DNA of 64,000 nucleotides from Candidatus Saccharimonadales bacterium (GTDB lineage: Bacteria; Acidobacteriota; Terriglobia; Acidiferrales; UBA7541), in NCBI GenBank assembly GCA_035317965.1, contig DATHFT010000197.1, positions 12,731-76,730 of the forward strand. Reading direction: 5' to 3'. Positions 17,393 through 20,588 of the stretch are shown here, one piece after another (within the stretch, counting starts at the first letter, position 1; each line of letters begins with the position of its first letter). Under the pieces are notes generated by a model. That model made no database searches and was not told where the DNA came from. It was given only the letters and a program-made list of their open reading frames with translations. The position numbers were made by a program, and so were the translations under genes.

Positions 17393-18721
17393 TTACTCCG
17401 CGGCTTCCTCCACCGCAGCGATGTAATCCAGTACCCGCTCCGACCATCCGTCGATATGCGTCCAACCATCCCCATAACTGATCCCCGGCTTGTACGGCGC
17501 CACGTTCACCACGTAGGCCTTTTCCGTCCACGCCGGCAGGATTCCGTCATGCGATTGTTCGTCCGTAATCACGATCAACCGGTCGAGTTCCTGCCATCCT
17601 TTCCGTTCGTGAAGTTCCGACAAAGCCCGCTTCAAATACGTCCCAGAGTGCGCCTGAGAATTCTCAATCGCATCGCGCAACGCAAATCCTCGGCGCGCCG
17701 GCACCTCCACACACTTGTCTGAAAACGTTGCCGCCGAAAACTCCTCCGCCTTTTCGCGGAGCAGAATCGCCAGCCCGCACGCCGCATCCACGCGCGTGGT
17801 CTCGCCCTTATTCGAAAGCCGGGAATTCATCGACCCGGATACGTCAACGAGCAGTCCCGTCGATCCCGCCAGCTTCCGAAGTCCGGCGATCCCCGCCAGC
17901 ATCGCCTCTTCGATGGCCTCCTCAAGCTTCGGAGCGTGCCGCGCCGCCGTCACAAATCGAAACGGCAACGCGCGCGCCACTCCTTTCCTGAGCCGGTCAC
18001 GGATCAGTTGCGGATCCACTCCCGCTGCCAGCATCAGACGCAGGTTCCGCAGGGTTGCCAATCCGCCCAGCTTGCACTCGCGCAGCAGACGTTCGAAGTT
18101 CTCGCGCTTGTCCTTCCCTGCGGACAAGACAACCTCCCAAGTGTCGGGAGATTCGAGCGTGTTCTCAACGAGCTTCTTCCAAACGGCTTCCTGCGCTGCA
18201 TCTTTCGGCTTCGCATGGCACAAAAACAGCACGTCGCGGAGCTTCACTTTCGCATCGCGGTTGTACTTCGCCAGCTGGTACGCGTCGAACTTCTGGAACG
18301 CACGCGCCAACCCGCGCTTTACTCCCGCCGAAAGCGGCTGCTTTTTGTCCTTCCAGTACAACGAAACGAACTCACCAAGCTCGTCCGCGCGCTGGATCAC
18401 CTGCTCAAGCGTTTGCGCCACCAGCGACCCCGTCCCTTTACGGCGCGCCAGTTCGCGTACCAGGAAGAGTGGAGCATGGCGCAGTTGCATCGCGTCGCGC
18501 GCTTCTTGTGCCACAGCGACCACCGTTTCTGGTTTGTTCTCTGCCACGAGTCTTGCAATTCGTTCCGCAATGTCGCTTCCCTTTTCGTAAAACGCGTCTT
18601 CCCACAACAAACACGTCGCCACCGTGCGCCGCAATTCGCGCTTCACGTCCACGCGCTGCGCCACTGCACCTTCATGCGTCCGCAACGGAAGCGTCTTCTT
18701 CCAGACATTCATCTTCGCCAT
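17393..18721 (-). CDS. rsr: Ro60-related protein (TROVE domain plus vWA domain)
   Basis: N-terminal THEGAVAQ...LLWEDAFYEKG...LRHAPLFLVRELAR matches bacterial TROVE/Rsr proteins. The C-terminal vWA has a DVSGSM (DxSxS) MIDAS motif. The ATG at 18721 is preceded by GGAGA. Confidence 0.85.
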   Translation of the reverse strand: MAKMNVWKKTLPLRTHEGAVAQRVDVKRELRRTVATCLLWEDAFYEKGSDIAERIARLVAENKPETVVAVAQEARDAMQLRHAPLFLVRELARRKGTGSLVAQTLEQVIQRADELGEFVSLYWKDKKQPLSAGVKRGLARAFQKFDAYQLAKYNRDAKVKLRDVLFLCHAKPKDAAQEAVWKKLVENTLESPDTWEVVLSAGKDKRENFERLLRECKLGGLATLRNLRLMLAAGVDPQLIRDRLRKGVARALPFRFVTAARHAPKLEEAIEEAMLAGIAGLRKLAGSTGLLVDVSGSMNSRLSNKGETTRVDAACGLAILLREKAEEFSAATFSDKCVEVPARRGFALRDAIENSQAHSGTYLKRALSELHERKGWQELDRLIVITDEQSHDGILPAWTEKAYVVNVAPYKPGISYGDGWTHIDGWSERVLDYIAAVEEAAE

Positions 18722-18768
18722 CACTGCACTTCTCCTTTCCGCCGCACGTGATCGAACCGTGCAGCTGC

Positions 18769-18777
18769 TTTCAGAAA
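18769..18777. repeat. TTTCAGAAA palindrome (copy 3 of 3 in the rsr upstream tract)
   Basis: Perfect TTTC-A-GAAA palindrome about 45 nt upstream of the rsr start. Related copies are at 19058-19068 and 19495-19509. Confidence 0.3.
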
Positions 18778-18919
18778 TCGCCGGACGGGAACTTCAGGCG
18801 CACTGCCATTCGGGGGCAGCCCGCACTGCTGGACCGGGCTGGCTGCCAACCGCTCCCTTCCCCGGCGTTCACCAGGGTGCTCTGCCGCAGTACGACTCAG
18901 TCCACCACACCGAAACTAC

Positions 18920-19055
18920 TTGCGGCGGGAATCGGCGGCGAGAGTCTTTCTCCGCTGCTCTGCCACTGAGCTACAGTGACTTTCGTCACCGGCAGGACTC
19001 GAACCTGCGACCAACGGTTTTCGTCGATGTAACTCACGCCTTCACCACGCCGCAA
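18920..19055 (-). ncRNA. YrlA-class bacterial Y RNA candidate with a circularly permuted tRNA-like domain
   Basis: The minus strand at 19012-18957 reads variable-like GGTC, T arm GCAGG-TTCGAGT-CCTGC, 7-bp acceptor-like helix CGGTGAC/GTCACTG closed by GAAA, then TA, then D arm GCTC-AGTGGCA-GAGC. The flanks can pair: TTGCGGCG at 19055-19048 with CGCCGCAA at 18927-18920. It lies about 200 nt upstream of rsr on the same strand. The exact ends are not determined. Confidence 0.7.
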
Positions 19056-19057
19056 AC

Positions 19058-19068
19058 TTTTCAGAAAA
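19058..19068. repeat. TTTTCAGAAAA palindrome (copy 2 of 3)
   Basis: Perfect TTTTC-A-GAAAA palindrome immediately 5' (minus-strand sense) of the Y RNA candidate's outer stem. Confidence 0.3.
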
Positions 19069-19328
19069 ACTCTTCTTTCACTCCTTCGTTGCTGGACTGC
19101 TTCTTTGTTTCGCGCTGTAGATACACCCCAACCCTTACAGTGAGCGCCGCGCTCACGTTCACCAGCTTTTCCGGGAGGAACCAGCGTCTACGGTCTCGGG
19201 GTTTCGGACCCCAGCCTTGCGGCTTCATCCAGCGAAGTATCCGTAAACTACGCCATCCCAGGAAATACCCTGTAGCGAAGTCAATGCATCGAAACGACTT
19301 GGGCGGTTTTGTTCGTTACGGTCGCGCG

Positions 19329-19457
19329 AAAAAAGCAGTGCACACGACGTTGCCGCCTTGCTTCAATCCGAATTGGCTTTTGTCGTCGTGTCTCATTCTC
19401 TGCTCTTCTCGCTCAGTGAGGACCTGCACAAAAATGCAGCAGGCGTACGACTGAGGT
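19329..19457 (-). ncRNA. Promoter-proximal structured RNA candidate (function unknown)
   Basis: It lies downstream of the TTGACA promoter. Stem CTCAGT/ACTGAG (19455-19450 with 19417-19412) encloses hairpin CCTGC...GCAGG (19443-19423). An 8-bp stem ACACGACG/CGTCGTGT (19391-19384 with 19349-19342) follows, then T6 at 19334-19329. The call is based on structure only. Confidence 0.25.
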
Positions 19458-19463
19458 AATCTG

Positions 19464-19492
19464 AAAGTAAACGGAGATCGCAAATCTGTCAA
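19464..19492 (-). promoter_or_regulatory. Sigma70-like promoter at the head of the rsr upstream tract
   Basis: The minus strand has TTGACA (19492-19487), a 17-nt spacer, then TACTTT (19469-19464). The -35 is perfect and the -10 is weak. It starts about 70 nt after the stop of the upstream MBL gene. Confidence 0.35.
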
Positions 19493-19494
19493 GC

Positions 19495-19509
19495 TTTTTC
19501 TCAGAAAAA
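19495..19509. repeat. TTTTTCT-C-AGAAAAA palindrome (copy 1 of 3)
   Basis: Perfect 15-nt palindrome directly abutting the -35 element of the candidate promoter. Confidence 0.3.
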
Positions 19510-19559
19510 CAGTAAAATTGGCCCATTTTTCGTATAACTTGTTAATTTTCAAGTACCTG

Positions 19560-20588
19560 TCATTTTTTTTCGTAGGTTTTACTAAATCCGTTTCGCGAAT
19601 TCAGCAAGGTGAACGTACCGTCGGCCGACGCCGTCGCTTTGATAAATTTTCCTTCGCACTTTTCCTCCACATTCGCAATCAACTCTTCCTTCGAGTTGTG
19701 TTCCTTACCCGCCGCAATCGCGTAGTGCAGTTGCCATACTTCGGGATTTCCTGGAGCATCATGCGCGATCTGCCAGGCTGCCGCGTCGCCACCTTTCTTC
19801 GCGCCCGTTTCCATTACGCTCGCCCGGGGATGCAGTGCATGTACCAGCGCTTTCGGATTCGAAGTATCTCCGCCATGGTGCTCCATCAAAAATAGATCCA
19901 CAGTCCCGACCAGATTGTTCGGACATACCAACTCCACTTCTTTCTTCTTGGTCAAATCTCCCAGATCGAGAAACCTGAATTTTCCAAATGTCACTAGTAT
20001 TCCCAGCGACTGGGCATTCTCACTCGGGTCAACTTCGGCCGCCGGCTCTGACCCGCACAACGGGTTGGCCTGTCCGGCCCCCGGCAACGCCGCGGAAATG
20101 TGCTGCCCTGCCGCGGTCATTACTTCAACCTTCATTCCTTTTGTGGGAATAAAATCGCCCGGCTTCACCGTCATCTGCCGATCCCCGGCCACCTTCTTGT
20201 ACGCGGCAAATATCTCCGGAGTATTTCCATCCGTCTCCACGCTCGCCCCATGATCGACAAATTTCCCAATCTTGATCTTCTCCGCCAGCTGCGGCACACC
20301 CCCGGTATGATCCATGTGATAGTGCGTCAGCACCACGTAGTCGATTTGCGTAAGCCCCGCATCCTTGGCCGCCGCCACAATCCGATCCGCATCCCTCCCG
20401 CCATTCCCCGGCCAGCCCGTATCCACTAGAATCGACTCGCCCGTCGGGCTCACAATTAAGGTCGACTGGCCGCCCTCCACGTCGATAAAATATATCTTTA
20501 ACTCCTTACCTGCGGCGGCCGATGTTCCCGCAAAAAGAATCAGCAACATCGTAAGGGTCTTGCGCATAAGTTTGCTGGATCGCTGCAT
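19560..20588 (-). CDS. Secreted MBL-fold metallo-hydrolase
   Basis: Signal-peptide-like N-terminus (MLLILFAGTSAAAG) and the HYHMDHTGG (HxHxDH) motif. Confidence 0.8.
   Translation of the reverse strand: MQRSSKLMRKTLTMLLILFAGTSAAAGKELKIYFIDVEGGQSTLIVSPTGESILVDTGWPGNGGRDADRIVAAAKDAGLTQIDYVVLTHYHMDHTGGVPQLAEKIKIGKFVDHGASVETDGNTPEIFAAYKKVAGDRQMTVKPGDFIPTKGMKVEVMTAAGQHISAALPGAGQANPLCGSEPAAEVDPSENAQSLGILVTFGKFRFLDLGDLTKKKEVELVCPNNLVGTVDLFLMEHHGGDTSNPKALVHALHPRASVMETGAKKGGDAAAWQIAHDAPGNPEVWQLHYAIAAGKEHNSKEELIANVEEKCEGKFIKATASADGTFTLLNSRNGFSKTYEKK

What the first reader, a model, noticed from the sequence alone, without database searches (positions are those of the whole stretch)
18920..19055. Circularly permuted tRNA-like element just upstream of rsr: a YrlA-class Y RNA
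On the minus strand, 19012-18957 reads 5'-GGTC GCAGG TTCGAGT CCTGC CGGTGAC GAAA GTCACTG TA GCTC AGTGGCA GAGC-3'.
- It has a canonical T arm (5-bp stem, TTCGAGT loop).
- A 7-bp acceptor-like helix follows (CGGTGAC/GTCACTG, one G.U), capped by a C(GAAA)G tetraloop.
- A U8/A9-like TA follows, then a canonical D arm carrying the GG needed for the tRNA elbow.

This is tRNA order opened at the anticodon loop and closed at the acceptor end.

The flanks can pair over long range. TTGCGGCG (19055-19048) pairs with CGCCGCAA (18927-18920), and ATCGACG pairs with CGCCGAT further in. This gives a bulged stem where the anticodon arm would be.

The next gene on the same strand is a Ro60/TROVE-vWA protein. Bacterial Y RNAs of the YrlA class are known to be encoded next to rsr. 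They contain a tRNA-mimicking domain whose two ends emerge from the Ro-binding stem, which is the topology seen here.

Standard tRNA finders and ORF-based annotation would miss it.
Basis: partly seen in the sequence, partly recalled or inferred. Interest (0 to 1): 0.8.

Follow-up and report, generated by a model that had tools for sequence, protein, structure and literature searches.

The report
Y RNA (YrlA-type) beside Ro60 gene
This is a real 138-base non-coding Y RNA with a built-in, circularly permuted tRNA look-alike, sitting just upstream of the bacterial Ro60 (rsr) gene in a soil acidobacterium; it is a new member of a known RNA class, and it belongs to a larger tandem set of such RNAs.

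Summary
Minus strand 19056-18919 carries a T arm, a 7-bp acceptor-like helix capped by GAAA, UA, a D arm, and an 8-bp terminal helix, 198 nt upstream of a TROVE+vWA Ro60 gene.

- **Family match:** Rfam YrlA matches at E=2e-9 but at 48.3 bits, below its gathering score of 69. ARAGORN finds nothing.
- **Conservation:** 46 orthologous copies from Acidoferrales-type genomes show compensatory changes in every helix. They also show covariation of the tRNA Levitt pair.
- **Permutation test:** re-permuting the sequence makes ARAGORN call a tRNA in 39 of 42 copies, against 0 of 840 shuffles.
- **One correction:** Comparative data support GGCGUGAG/CUCUCGCC, then UUAC, then a short CCGU/GCGG helix.

Verdict: a YrlA-class Y RNA, a new member of a known kind that Rfam's curated threshold misses.

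Beyond the finding:
- The window holds a second Y module (19264-19168) and a degenerate third (about 18913-18768).
- All lie behind an invariant promoter and a conserved structured leader.
- Relatives carry up to six Y modules in fixed order.
- One module class is a tRNA mimic opened in the D loop. I found no description of it in the held papers I read or searched.

Rsr binding and expression remain untested.

The parts
18919..19056 (-). Whole Y RNA module ('class a', YrlA-type), 138 nt
   Evidence: Own covariance model gives 114.5 bits (the window was part of the seed). Rfam YrlA gives 48.3 bits, E = 2e-9, over 18932-19027. It aligns end to end with 45 orthologous copies.
19048..19055 (-). 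5' strand of terminal helix H1 (UUGCGGCG); pairs with 18927-18920
   Evidence: Invariant within class a. Covaries between paralog classes: GCGGCG/CGCCGC, GCAGAG/CUCUGC, GGACG/CGUCC, CCGGUG/CACCGG, CCGGGA/UCCCGG.
18920..18927 (-). 3' strand of terminal helix H1 (CGCCGCAA)
19039..19047 (-). Bulged U (19047) plus the UGGUGAAGG motif. G19046 and G19045 pair with C18929 and C18928. This is the presumed Rsr contact site and a variant of the published GNCGAAN0-1G motif.
   Evidence: The GG/CC pairs form in 45-46 of 46 class a copies and 144-148 of 150 modules. UGG[UC]G is present in 138 of 150 modules, while the exact GNCGAAN0-1G is present in only 8 of 150. The motif is defined in PMC4201824.
19033..19040 (-). 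5' strand of helix H2 (GGCGUGAG), the lower 'anticodon-region' helix; pairs with 18944-18937 with one U.U mismatch
   Evidence: 91% of cells paired. Column pair 24/135 is GC in 24 sequences and AU in 18.
18937..18944 (-). 3' strand of helix H2 (CUCUCGCC)
19029..19032 (-). UUAC, the conserved YUAY element of YrlA RNAs, followed by conserved AUCG
   Evidence: UUAC in 36 of 46 class a copies. YUAY at the equivalent place in 135 of 150 modules. YUAY is described in PMC4201824.
19014..19017 (-). Upper anticodon-stem-like helix, 5' strand (CCGU); pairs with GCGG at 18955-18952
   Evidence: The first three pairs are CG in 40, CG in 42, and GC in 27 / AU in 16 sequences. The fourth pair is poorly kept.
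18952..18955 (-). Upper anticodon-stem-like helix, 3' strand (GCGG)
19009..19013 (-). Variable-loop equivalent (UGGUC). Its last base C19009 is the '48' partner of the Levitt pair with G18966 ('15') in the D loop.
   Evidence: Levitt columns are C:G in 25, U:A in 14, U:G in 4 and other in 3 of 46 copies. Across 85 tRNA-like modules A:U occurs 39 times and G:C 30 times.
18992..19008 (-). T arm (GCAGG UUCGAGU CCUGC)
   Evidence: 98.7% of cells paired, with 2 of 5 pairs showing compensatory changes within class a and 5 of 5 across all modules.
18974..18991 (-). Acceptor-like helix, 7 bp (CGGUGAC/GUCACUG, one G.U), closed by a GAAA tetraloop
   Evidence: 96% of cells paired, with 4 of 7 pairs compensatory in class a and 7 of 7 across all modules. 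In most copies the loop is GAAA, GCAA, GCGA, GAGA or GUAA, read from alignment A5 because the extraction dropped the last loop base; 2 of 46 parsed differently.
18957..18973 (-). UA (U8/A9 equivalents, 18973-18972) plus the D arm (GCUC AGUGGCA GAGC) with A14, G15, G18G19 and A21 equivalents
   Evidence: Nearly invariant and 97.8% paired. D-loop variants all keep GG.
17393..18721 (-). rsr: Ro60 ortholog, 442 aa (ATG at 18721)
   Evidence: Pfam TROVE E = 3.5e-13 and vWA_Ro60 E = 1.9e-6, both above their cut-offs. Best solved relative is the Thermus phage phiLo Ro60, 9KOP/9L5Y, E = 3e-30 over residues 13-439.
19168..19264 (-). Second Y module ('class e', 97 nt, no full tRNA-like domain). It has the same kind of stem (UUUCCUGGGA/UCCCGGAAA, UGGCGUAG, helix UUUACGG/CCGUAGA, AUAC). 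It then has hairpins AGCC-GCAA-GGCU and GGGG-UCCGAAA-CCCC. In relatives the last one is a T-arm-like GGG-UUCGAAU-CCC.
   Evidence: 35.5 bits with the family model, E = 4.3e-8 in the local search. Consensus fold of 30 copies. The single-sequence fold alone is not remarkable, z = -1.64.
18768..18913 (-). Probable degenerate or chimeric third module (d'). Its 5' part (UUUCGGUG UGGUGGA ... GUAC ... GGCAGAGC A CCCUGG UGAACG CCGGGG) is homologous to class d modules of relatives. Its 3' end (GUUCCCGUCCGGCGA) resembles the 3' end of class c modules. The middle is unique.
   Evidence: Alignments A3 and A4. No significant model hit (best 3.1 bits, E = 1.6, at 18765-18875). Fold z = -1.34. Blastn shows almost no conservation of the middle in 63 loci.
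19464..19492 (-). Candidate promoter of the whole set: TTGACA (19492-19487), 17 nt, TACTTT (19469-19464)
   Evidence: CTTGACAG is invariant in 24 aligned loci, and five of the six TACTTT positions are invariant with the sixth at least 90% conserved. The generic consensus scan did not list it because the -10 matches only 3 of 6.
19322..19457 (-). Conserved structured leader 'X' (about 135 nt) between the promoter and the first Y module
   Evidence: Found by blastn in 54 of 63 loci, always upstream of the Y modules. RNAalifold gives a 26-pair consensus, 4 pairs with compensatory changes. No Rfam match. Indels are not multiples of 3, so it is not coding.

Best explanation
Minus strand 19056-18919 encodes a YrlA-class bacterial Y RNA.

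**Architecture.**
- The 5' and 3' ends pair into a bulged stem: an 8-bp helix, a bulged U, two G-C pairs and the UGGUGAAGG motif.
- A second helix with one mismatch and the UUAC element follow.
- The interior folds as a tRNA opened at the anticodon loop and closed at the acceptor end. It consists of a short anticodon-stem remnant, a 5-nt variable loop, a T arm, a 7-bp acceptor-like helix capped by a GNRA loop, UA, and a D arm.

**Proposed mechanism (inferred from the studied Deinococcus, Salmonella, Mycobacterium and phage phiLo systems).**
- The bulged stem binds the outer surface of the Rsr (Ro60) ring encoded 198 nt downstream.
- The L-shaped tRNA-like domain acts as the effector or gate module. 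It would tether Rsr to a partner such as PNPase and control access of other RNAs to the Rsr cavity.

**Expression (inferred).** The RNA is probably made as part of one precursor that starts at the invariant promoter at 19492-19464. That precursor would run through a conserved leader, a short Y module (19264-19168), this module and a degenerate third one into rsr, and would then be processed.

**Shown here:** sequence, conserved secondary structure, tRNA-type tertiary covariation, and exclusive linkage to rsr.
**Inferred:** transcription, processing, Rsr binding, the partner, and tRNA-type modification.
For: - **Family model:** the only Rfam family matching the region is YrlA, with the full model length aligned, E = 2e-9.
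- **Linkage:** the adjacent same-strand gene is a Ro60 ortholog. Its closest solved relative binds Y-like RNAs and forms a complex with PNPase (PMC12135203).
- **Exclusive position:** a model built from 23 related copies finds 256 modules in 63 rsr loci. All are on the rsr strand and upstream of rsr. None is inside or downstream of rsr or on the other strand, and there are only two in the 64-kb window.
- **Covariation:** across 46 orthologous copies, 94.7% of cells are paired against about 40% for slid controls, and 14 pairs show compensatory changes. Across 150 modules, 28 of 33 pairs are compensatory, with 96% paired against 79.5% in shuffles (that alignment is fitted to the model).
- **Tertiary structure:** the Levitt 15:48 pair covaries as G:C or A:U. 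The published crystal structure and alignments describe the same behaviour.
- **Permutation test:** I cut at the GNRA loop and closed the anticodon-like stem with one artificial base pair and a 7-nt loop. ARAGORN then calls a tRNA in 39 of 42 copies including the window's, against 0 of 840 shuffles and 0 of 46 native sequences.
- **Co-transcription:** no terminator-like site lies between the modules and rsr, and the upstream promoter hexamers are conserved. This fits the polycistronic Y RNA precursors reported in M. smegmatis and D. radiodurans.
- **Not coding:** antisense ORFs over the region have no family match.
Against: - The Rfam score (48.3) is below the curated gathering score (69). None of 18 related loci reaches it either.
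- The published 5' motif GNCGAAN0-1G is present only as the variant GGUGAAG (C to U). The exact form occurs in 8 of 150 modules.
- The window's sequence was in the seed of my model, so its own high score is by construction.
- There are no expression, end-mapping or binding data, because the organism is known only from metagenome assemblies.
- The stem within class a is almost invariant, so its covariation rests on comparison between paralog classes.
- Nothing in the window identifies the effector. No pnp, rtcB or rtcA lies within 5 kb.
Confidence: 0.87

Rival explanations
1. The element is not a free small RNA. It is a cis-acting structured part of the rsr 5' UTR. Rsr would bind its own leader to autoregulate translation or stability, and the tRNA-like fold would only stabilise the leader.
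For: It is on the same strand, 198 nt from the start codon. No terminator-like site lies between it and rsr. A single conserved promoter lies about 770 nt upstream of rsr.
Against: In the studied species, Y RNAs encoded upstream of rsr are cut out of polycistronic precursors and accumulate as separate Rsr-bound RNAs (PMC4201824). Relatives carry up to six discrete modules, each with its own closed terminal stem and short spacers. That looks like a set of excised units rather than one UTR. The two readings are not exclusive.
Confidence: 0.1
2. It is a circularly permuted tRNA gene, or a relic of one. It would mature into a working tRNA or tRNA halves, and its proximity to rsr would be incidental.
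For: The acceptor-like helix has 7 bp, as in a real tRNA. All core tRNA nucleotides are present. The re-permuted sequence is called as a tRNA. M. smegmatis YrlA, with a 7-bp stem, is cut by RNase P and receives CCA.
Against: There is no anticodon loop. The anticodon-stem remnant is 3-4 bp and runs into a conserved 40-nt stem with the Y RNA motifs. The acceptor end is closed by a conserved 4-nt GNRA loop with no CCA. All 256 related modules sit upstream of rsr. Native sequences are not called by ARAGORN.
Confidence: 0.02
3. It is a chance resemblance or a dispersed tRNA-derived repeat with no function.
For: The Rfam score is below the gathering score. The genome is GC-rich, so stems form easily.
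Against: Fold z = -3.95. Rfam E = 2e-9. Helices covary. The location is strictly upstream of rsr in 63 loci, and there are no other copies in the 64-kb window.
Confidence: 0.01

Closest known systems
Salmonella Typhimurium YrlA (Rfam RF02553; tRNA-like domain structure PDB 6CU1)
   Same: - Same order of parts: Rsr-binding 5' motif, lower helix, YUAY, upper anticodon-stem-like helix, short variable loop, T arm, closed acceptor-like stem, UA, D arm, and return strands.
- Levitt pair and D-loop GG are present.
- Encoded next to rsr on the same strand.
   Different: - An 11-nt insertion (AUCGACGAAAA) lies between YUAY and the upper helix.
- The acceptor-like stem has 7 bp rather than 6, with a natural GNRA tetraloop where Salmonella has a 3-nt loop.
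- The motif is GGUGAAG rather than GNCGAA.
- Both strands of the terminal helix are well formed, with a bulged U. The paper says only the 5' strand is recognisable in Salmonella and M. smegmatis.
- There is no rtcBA/RtcR context.
- It scores below the Rfam gathering threshold.
Mycobacterium smegmatis YrlA/YrlB
   Same: - Encoded upstream of rsr and, by inference here, processed from one precursor with a second Y RNA.
- 7-bp acceptor-like stem.
- The companion Y RNA has only a T-arm-like hairpin, like class e here.
   Different: [quoted passage not shown]
- Here the acceptor stem is capped by only 4 nt.
- Relatives of this window carry up to six modules rather than two.
Deinococcus radiodurans Yrn1/Yrn2
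   Same: - Both strands of a bulged terminal helix are retained.
- Several Rsr-linked small RNAs are encoded upstream of rsr in one precursor.
- Tethering to PNPase is the working model for function.
   Different: Yrn1 has its T and D elements in the opposite order, with the anticodon-arm-like hairpin between them, and lacks a full D arm. The window's RNA has the YrlA order.
Thermus phage phiLo Yrl1/Yrl2 with phiRo60 (PDB 9KOP, 9L5Y)
   Same: The protein is the closest solved relative of the window's Rsr, E = 3e-30. Two Y-like RNAs are encoded just upstream of the Ro60 gene, with a CGAA-type motif in a stem-bulge-stem.
   Different: The terms 'tRNA-like' and 'YrlA' do not occur in that paper's main text, so it describes no tRNA-like domain for Yrl1/2. 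I did not compare the RNA sequences.
Metazoan Y RNAs (Rfam RF00019)
   Same: They share a terminal bulged helix bound by Ro60 and a large internal region. From memory only, the 5' strand UGGUGAAGGCGUGAGUUAC resembles human Y1 UGGUCCGAAGGUAGUGAGUUAUC. This is a lead, not a test.
   Different: No Rfam Y_RNA match even at E <= 10. Metazoan Y RNAs have no tRNA-like domain.

Membership tests
YrlA-class bacterial Y RNA (Chen et al. 2014; Rfam RF02553) | Encoded within about 4 kb of, and on the same strand as, a Ro60/TROVE ortholog | tested here: met
   The element ends 198 nt upstream of the rsr ATG on the same strand. All 256 related modules are upstream of rsr on its strand.
YrlA-class bacterial Y RNA (Chen et al. 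2014; Rfam RF02553) | Match to the curated covariance model RF02553 | tested here: inconclusive
   48.3 bits, E = 2e-9, with the full model 1-114 aligned, but below the gathering score of 69. No hit at the gathering threshold in the window or in 18 related loci. The printed alignment deletes the model's lower helix. It pairs CGACGA with UCGCCG, a register that the comparative data do not support.
YrlA-class bacterial Y RNA (Chen et al. 2014; Rfam RF02553) | tRNA-like T arm (5-bp stem, UUCRANY-type loop) | tested here: met
   GCAGG UUCGAGU CCUGC. 98.7% paired with compensatory changes. T-loop variants are listed.
YrlA-class bacterial Y RNA (Chen et al. 2014; Rfam RF02553) | tRNA-like D arm with the two G that form the elbow, preceded by UA (U8/A9 equivalents) | tested here: met
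   UA GCUC AGUGGCA GAGC, nearly invariant in 46 copies.
YrlA-class bacterial Y RNA (Chen et al. 2014; Rfam RF02553) | [quoted passage not shown] | tested here: met
   7-bp helix plus a GNRA loop. 96% paired, with 4 of 7 pairs compensatory. Re-permuted sequences are called tRNA by ARAGORN in 39 of 42 copies, against 0 of 840 shuffles.
YrlA-class bacterial Y RNA (Chen et al. 2014; Rfam RF02553) | Levitt-type 15:48 tertiary pair kept by covariation (G:C or A:U) | tested here: met
   The window has G:C. Class a shows C:G in 25, U:A in 14, U:G in 4 and other in 3 of 46 copies. Among 85 modules, A:U occurs 39 times and G:C 30 times.
YrlA-class bacterial Y RNA (Chen et al. 2014; Rfam RF02553) | GNCGAAN0-1G motif near the 5' end (presumed Rsr contact) | tested here: inconclusive
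   The window has GGUGAAG, with U in place of C. The exact motif occurs in 8 of 150 modules, and the relaxed form G-N-Y-G-N-R-(N)-G in 141 of 150.
YrlA-class bacterial Y RNA (Chen et al. 2014; Rfam RF02553) | Conserved YUAY between the Rsr-binding module and the tRNA-like core | tested here: met
   UUAC at 19032-19029. Present in 135 of 150 modules.
YrlA-class bacterial Y RNA (Chen et al. 2014; Rfam RF02553) | Long stem formed by pairing of the 5' and 3' ends | tested here: met
   8 bp, a bulged U and 2 bp, then an 8-bp helix with one mismatch. Supported.
YrlA-class bacterial Y RNA (Chen et al. 2014; Rfam RF02553) | Stable RNA bound by Rsr in vivo, carrying tRNA-type modifications (pseudouridine 55, dihydrouridine) | not testable with these tools
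   No expression or binding data are available for this uncultured lineage.
tRNA (Rfam RF00005 / ARAGORN) | Cloverleaf in native order with an anticodon loop | tested here: not met
   No tRNA is called in the window by ARAGORN or by Rfam at the gathering threshold. 0 of 46 native class a sequences are called.
Metazoan-type Y RNA (Rfam RF00019) | Match to the Y_RNA covariance model | tested here: not met
   No match at E <= 10 in 18500-19800.
Ro60/Rsr protein family (for the neighbouring gene) | TROVE HEAT-repeat ring domain followed by a Ro60-type vWA domain | tested here: met
   Pfam TROVE 50 bits (cut-off 23) and vWA_Ro60 28.3 bits (cut-off 27.7). Full-length match to phage phiLo Ro60 structures at E = 3e-30.

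The most novel reading that the evidence does not exclude
The window's Y RNA is one unit of a clade-wide, fixed-order battery of up to six paralogous Y RNAs: leader X, then e, a, b, d, f, c, then rsr. All share one Rsr-binding stem but carry different heads.

One head type (class d) is a tRNA mimic opened in the D loop. It keeps a complete anticodon arm as well as a closed acceptor stem. The held papers I read or searched describe only the anticodon-opened YrlA and the Yrn1 arrangement; supplements and the 2020 review were not available.

If real, one Ro60 ring in these soil bacteria could be directed to several different tRNA-binding or RNA-processing partners by swapping Y RNAs. The modules also appear to evolve by recombination between neighbours, as in the window's d' and the L049 d/c chimera.
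Probability: 0.5. Interest if true: 0.6.

Novelty: new member of a known kind. Interest (0 to 1): 0.42.

Why it matters
- **Annotation gap:** the element extends the YrlA class to an abundant, uncultured group of soil Acidobacteriota (Acidoferrales-type genomes). The curated Rfam threshold and tRNA finders miss the whole group, so these loci are currently annotated as empty intergenic DNA. In some relatives they are annotated as spurious intron-containing tRNAs.
- **Family link:** these Y RNAs combine a YrlA-type tRNA-like head with a two-stranded bulged stem like that of Deinococcus and animal Y RNAs. That links the two bacterial Y RNA types.
- **Material for experiments:** the data set has 150 aligned modules of six classes, with natural variation in stem, loop and head. 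It is ready-made material for asking what Rsr recognises and what the tRNA-like head binds. The structural paper leaves that second question open.

Tried and rejected
The ATCGACG/CGCCGAT pairing is 66% paired with no covariation, so I rejected it in favour of H2.
- **Variable-arm hairpin.** The minimum-energy hairpin AUCGACG/CGUUGGU would correspond to a class II-like variable arm. It is 68% paired with no consistent covariation. It would also engage the variable-loop bases needed for the Levitt pair and base triples. I did not adopt it, but it is not excluded as an alternative conformer.
- **Third module.** The candidate at 18913-18768 gets no significant hit from the family model, folds unremarkably (z = -1.34), and has a unique middle. 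An exact 19-mer from that middle found 32 metagenome stretches, none with a Y module, so these are chance matches. I treat it as a degenerate chimera, not a confirmed Y RNA.
- **U-run after leader X (19334-19329).** This looked like an intrinsic terminator. The U-run is not conserved in relatives (CUGCUUGUUC in most), so I do not call it a terminator.
- **First re-permutation script for class d.** It mis-placed the acceptor strands and was corrected.
- **Literature limits.** Supplementary tables of Chen et al. 2014 are not held and the 2020 review could not be read. I could not check whether any Acidobacteria were in the original list. A full-text search for Y RNA + Ro60 + Acidobacteria found nothing.
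- **Antisense ORFs.** Protein-coding readings of the antisense ORFs were rejected because they have no family match.
Full report
**Observation**

The minus strand of the window between 19056 and 18919 reads as follows:

UUUGCGGCG U GG UGAAGG CGUGAG UUAC AUCGACGAAAA CCGU UGGUC GCAGG-UUCGAGU-CCUGC CGGUGAC-GAAA-GUCACUG UA GCUC-AGUGGCA-GAGC A GCGG AGAAAGA CUCUCGCC GCCGAUU CC CGCCGCAAG

The element is unlikely to be chance.
- The region folds 3.95 standard deviations better than dinucleotide shuffles, and none of 200 shuffles folds as well.
- ARAGORN finds no tRNA in the whole window.
- No Rfam family reaches its gathering score.
- With E-value reporting, the only Rfam family matching 18500-19800 is YrlA (RF02553). 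It scores 48.3 bits, E = 2e-9, with model positions 1-114 all aligned, against a gathering score of 69.

**Surroundings**

- The next gene on the same strand (18721-17393) is a 442-aa TROVE plus Ro60-type vWA protein.
- Its closest solved relative is the ring-shaped Ro60 of Thermus phage phiLo, at E = 3e-30 over nearly its full length. That protein binds two Y-like RNAs encoded just upstream of its gene and assembles with PNPase (PMC12135203).
- The other neighbours are an MBL-fold hydrolase, MotA/ExbB and DUF885 upstream, and convergent rho and lon downstream. None has an obvious link to Rsr, and there is no rtcB, rtcA or rtcR.
- Rsr homologs at 80-92% identity come from soil Acidobacteriota labelled Candidatus Acidoferrum or Acidiferrales.
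- Antisense ORFs over the region have no family match.

**Comparative evidence**

I fetched 63 rsr loci from species-representative genomes and two closer contigs.
- A simple motif search already showed tRNA-like units upstream of rsr, with compensatory changes in the acceptor-like stem.
- An alignment of 23 units gave an RNAalifold consensus with 33 pairs, 15 of them with compensatory changes.
- A covariance model built from that alignment found 256 matches in the 63 loci. All are on the rsr strand and upstream of rsr, although both strands and the downstream halves of the loci were searched.
- In the 64-kb window the model finds two matches: 19056-18919 and 19264-19168.

**Structure of the window's RNA**

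I aligned the window element with 45 orthologous copies, the class with the UUGCGGCG/CGCCGCAA stem, and counted three alternative structures on that alignment.

The model supported by the comparison has these parts:
- H1, 8 bp, then a bulged U and two G-C pairs.
- H2, GGCGUGAG/CUCUCGCC. It is 91% paired, with a GC-to-AU switch in 18 sequences.
- A 3-4-bp upper helix, CCGU/GCGG, whose third pair is GC in 27 and AU in 16 sequences.
- A T arm, a 7-bp acceptor-like helix and a D arm.

The tertiary Levitt position (last base of the variable loop against D-loop position 15) is C:G in 25 and U:A in 14 of 46 copies. Across 85 tRNA-like modules it is A:U in 39 and G:C in 30. This matches the covariation reported for YrlA RNAs.

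Two alternatives are not supported.
- The minimum-energy hairpin AUCGACG/CGUUGGU is 68% paired with no consistent covariation.

The cap of the acceptor-like helix is GAAA, GCAA, GCGA, GAGA or GUAA in most copies. So a GNRA tetraloop is selected.

Across all 150 best modules, 28 of 33 pairs show compensatory changes, with 96% paired against 79.5% in shuffles. The caveat is that this alignment is fitted to the model.

**A direct test of 'circularly permuted tRNA'**

I cut each class a sequence in the GNRA loop. I then joined the anticodon-stem-like strands with one artificial base pair and a 7-nt loop, and added ACCA.
- ARAGORN then calls a tRNA in 39 of 42 copies, including the window's.
- It of 840 controls in which the natural parts were shuffled.
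- It of 46 native sequences.

**Comparison with the published family**

Chen et al. 2014 define YrlA RNAs by these features (PMC4201824):
- position next to rsr on the same strand;
- a 5' GNCGAAN0-1G motif;
- a YUAY element;
- T and D arms with a closed acceptor-like stem-loop between them;
- a stem formed by the two ends.

The crystal structure of the Salmonella tRNA-like domain shows a lower helix, a kink at the UA of YUAY, and a 4-bp upper helix. It also shows a short variable loop and tRNA-type tertiary contacts (10.1101/312249). The window's RNA has each of these parts in the same order.

It differs in five respects.
- It has an 11-nt insertion between UUAC and the upper helix.
- Its acceptor-like stem has 7 bp, as in M. 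smegmatis YrlA, which RNase P cleaves. It also carries a natural GNRA cap.
- Its motif is the variant GGUGAAG. The exact published motif occurs in only 8 of 150 modules of this clade.
- Its terminal helix is well paired on both strands with a bulged U. The paper ascribes that feature to Deinococcus and animal Y RNAs rather than to YrlA.
- The insertion, and the register that cmscan chose, explain the sub-threshold Rfam score. cmscan deleted the model's lower helix and paired CGACGA with UCGCCG. None of 18 related loci reaches the YrlA gathering score either.

I therefore file it as a divergent but genuine member of the YrlA class.

**How it most likely works**

The mechanism is inferred from the studied systems.
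- The bulged stem with the UGGUGAAGG motif binds the outer face of the Rsr ring.
- The L-shaped tRNA-like head is the effector and gate module. In Deinococcus and Salmonella, Y RNA tethers Rsr to PNPase.
- What binds the conserved D and T stems of YrlA is still unknown.

Transcription probably starts at TTGACA-17 nt-TACTTT (19492-19464). In 24 aligned loci the -35 hexamer is invariant, and five of the six -10 positions are invariant. No terminator-like site lies between the modules and rsr. This fits the polycistronic precursors described for M. smegmatis and D. radiodurans.

None of these steps is shown for this organism.

**What else is in the window**

1. **A second Y module at 19264-19168.** It has the same kind of stem, followed by two small hairpins. 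In relatives the second hairpin is T-arm-like, GGG-UUCGAAU-CCC. This recalls the T arm noted in M. smegmatis YrlB.
2. **A probable degenerate third module at about 18913-18768.**
   - Its first 55 nt are homologous to 'class d' modules of relatives.
   - Its last 20 nt resemble the 3' end of 'class c' modules, and its middle is unique.
   - The model gives it no significant hit, and it folds unremarkably.
3. **A conserved structured leader of about 135 nt (19457-19322).** It lies directly behind the promoter, is found in 54 of 63 loci, and has no Rfam match.

**What the relatives show**

- Many loci carry six modules in a fixed order: e, a, b, d, f, c, then rsr. Examples are L053, L025, L002, L005, L057 and L031. 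The window has e, a and the d' remnant. Its two closest relatives still have class c directly before rsr.
- Class d is a different permutation of tRNA.
  - The Y stem enters through the D loop.
  - The RNA runs GGUA-GAGC, then a complete anticodon arm, a variable loop, a T arm, a closed 7-bp acceptor stem, UA and GCUC-AA.
  - RNAalifold pairs GAGC with GCUC around a three-way junction.
  - 15 of 35 pairs show compensatory changes.
- Removing the Y stem and rejoining the D loop, with no artificial bases except a 3' ACCA, makes ARAGORN call a tRNA. This works in 7 of the 9 loci whose copy keeps the D-loop GG.
- This topology is not among those described in the two Y RNA papers I could read.
- L049 carries a d/c chimera. 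This suggests that recombination between neighbouring modules reshapes these sets.

**Verdict**

The element is a new member of a known kind, of moderate interest in itself. Its context (multi-module Y RNA batteries, a conserved leader, and a D-loop-opened tRNA mimic) is the more novel part and is worth a specialist's attention.

Noticed in passing
window 19168-19264 (-): A second Y RNA module ('class e', 97 nt). It has the shared Rsr-type stem but only two small hairpins as its head. In relatives the second hairpin is T-arm-like (GGG-UUCGAAU-CCC). It scores 35.5 bits, E = 4e-8 locally.
   Followed up: yes
window about 18768-18913 (-): A degenerate or chimeric third module. The 5' part is homologous to class d modules (stem strand, GGCAGAGC, anticodon-arm-like CCCUGG-UGAACG-CCGGGG). 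The 3' end is like class c modules, and the middle is unique and GC-rich. The model gives no significant hit, and no relatives were found with an exact 19-mer in metagenomes.
   Followed up: partly
window 19322-19492 (-): A candidate promoter: TTGACA, 17 nt, TACTTT. In 24 aligned loci the -35 hexamer is invariant and five of six -10 positions are invariant. It is followed by a conserved structured leader RNA of about 135 nt, found upstream of the Y modules in 54 of 63 rsr loci. There is no Rfam match and the function is unknown. The window's U-run after it is not conserved.
   Followed up: partly
L065:97-241, L009:1002-1147, L029:1998-2176 and about 30 other loci: 'Class d' Y modules: a tRNA mimic opened in the D loop, with a complete anticodon arm and a closed 7-bp acceptor stem. 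Some have a long insertion in the acceptor loop. Rejoining the D loop makes ARAGORN call a tRNA in the subclass that keeps the D-loop GG. I found no description of this topology in the papers read.
   Followed up: partly
L053:1417-2565, L025:1435-2517, L002:1431-2540 and others: Up to six paralogous Y modules in a fixed order (e, a, b, d, f, c) between the leader and rsr. That is more than the two to four or so Rsr-linked RNAs reported for the studied species.
   Followed up: partly
L049:2447-2629: A class d 5' part fused to a class c D arm and 3' end. This implies a deletion by recombination between neighbouring modules at the shared UAGCUCA sequence. The window's d' may have arisen in a similar way.
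   Followed up: no
L029:1795-1931, L002:1720-1856, L007:2313-2443, L049:2249-2380 and others: The Rfam tRNA model passes its gathering score on stretches of about 135 nt. Each joins the D arm of one Y module to the T arm of the next. This artefact could be mis-annotated as an intron-containing tRNA.
   Followed up: partly
L055 and L058 (Steroidobacteraceae-type genomes; whole loci): A more distant rsr (52-53% identity) sits inside a dense array of 15-20 tRNA genes on the same strand. A Y module lies directly upstream of rsr (L058:2715-2856, L055:2634-2775).
   Followed up: no
window 17393-18721 (-): By sequence, the Rsr protein matches only the Thermus phage phiLo Ro60 among solved structures, at E = 3e-30. 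Deinococcus Rsr and Xenopus Ro60 are not matched even at E <= 10. At 442 aa it is shorter than phiRo60 (500 aa).
   Followed up: partly
window 19140-19156 (-): A perfect short hairpin, GUGAGCGC-G-GCGCUCAC, in the A-rich spacer between the two Y modules. The spacer is only partly conserved in the closest relative. It may be a processing signal.
   Followed up: no
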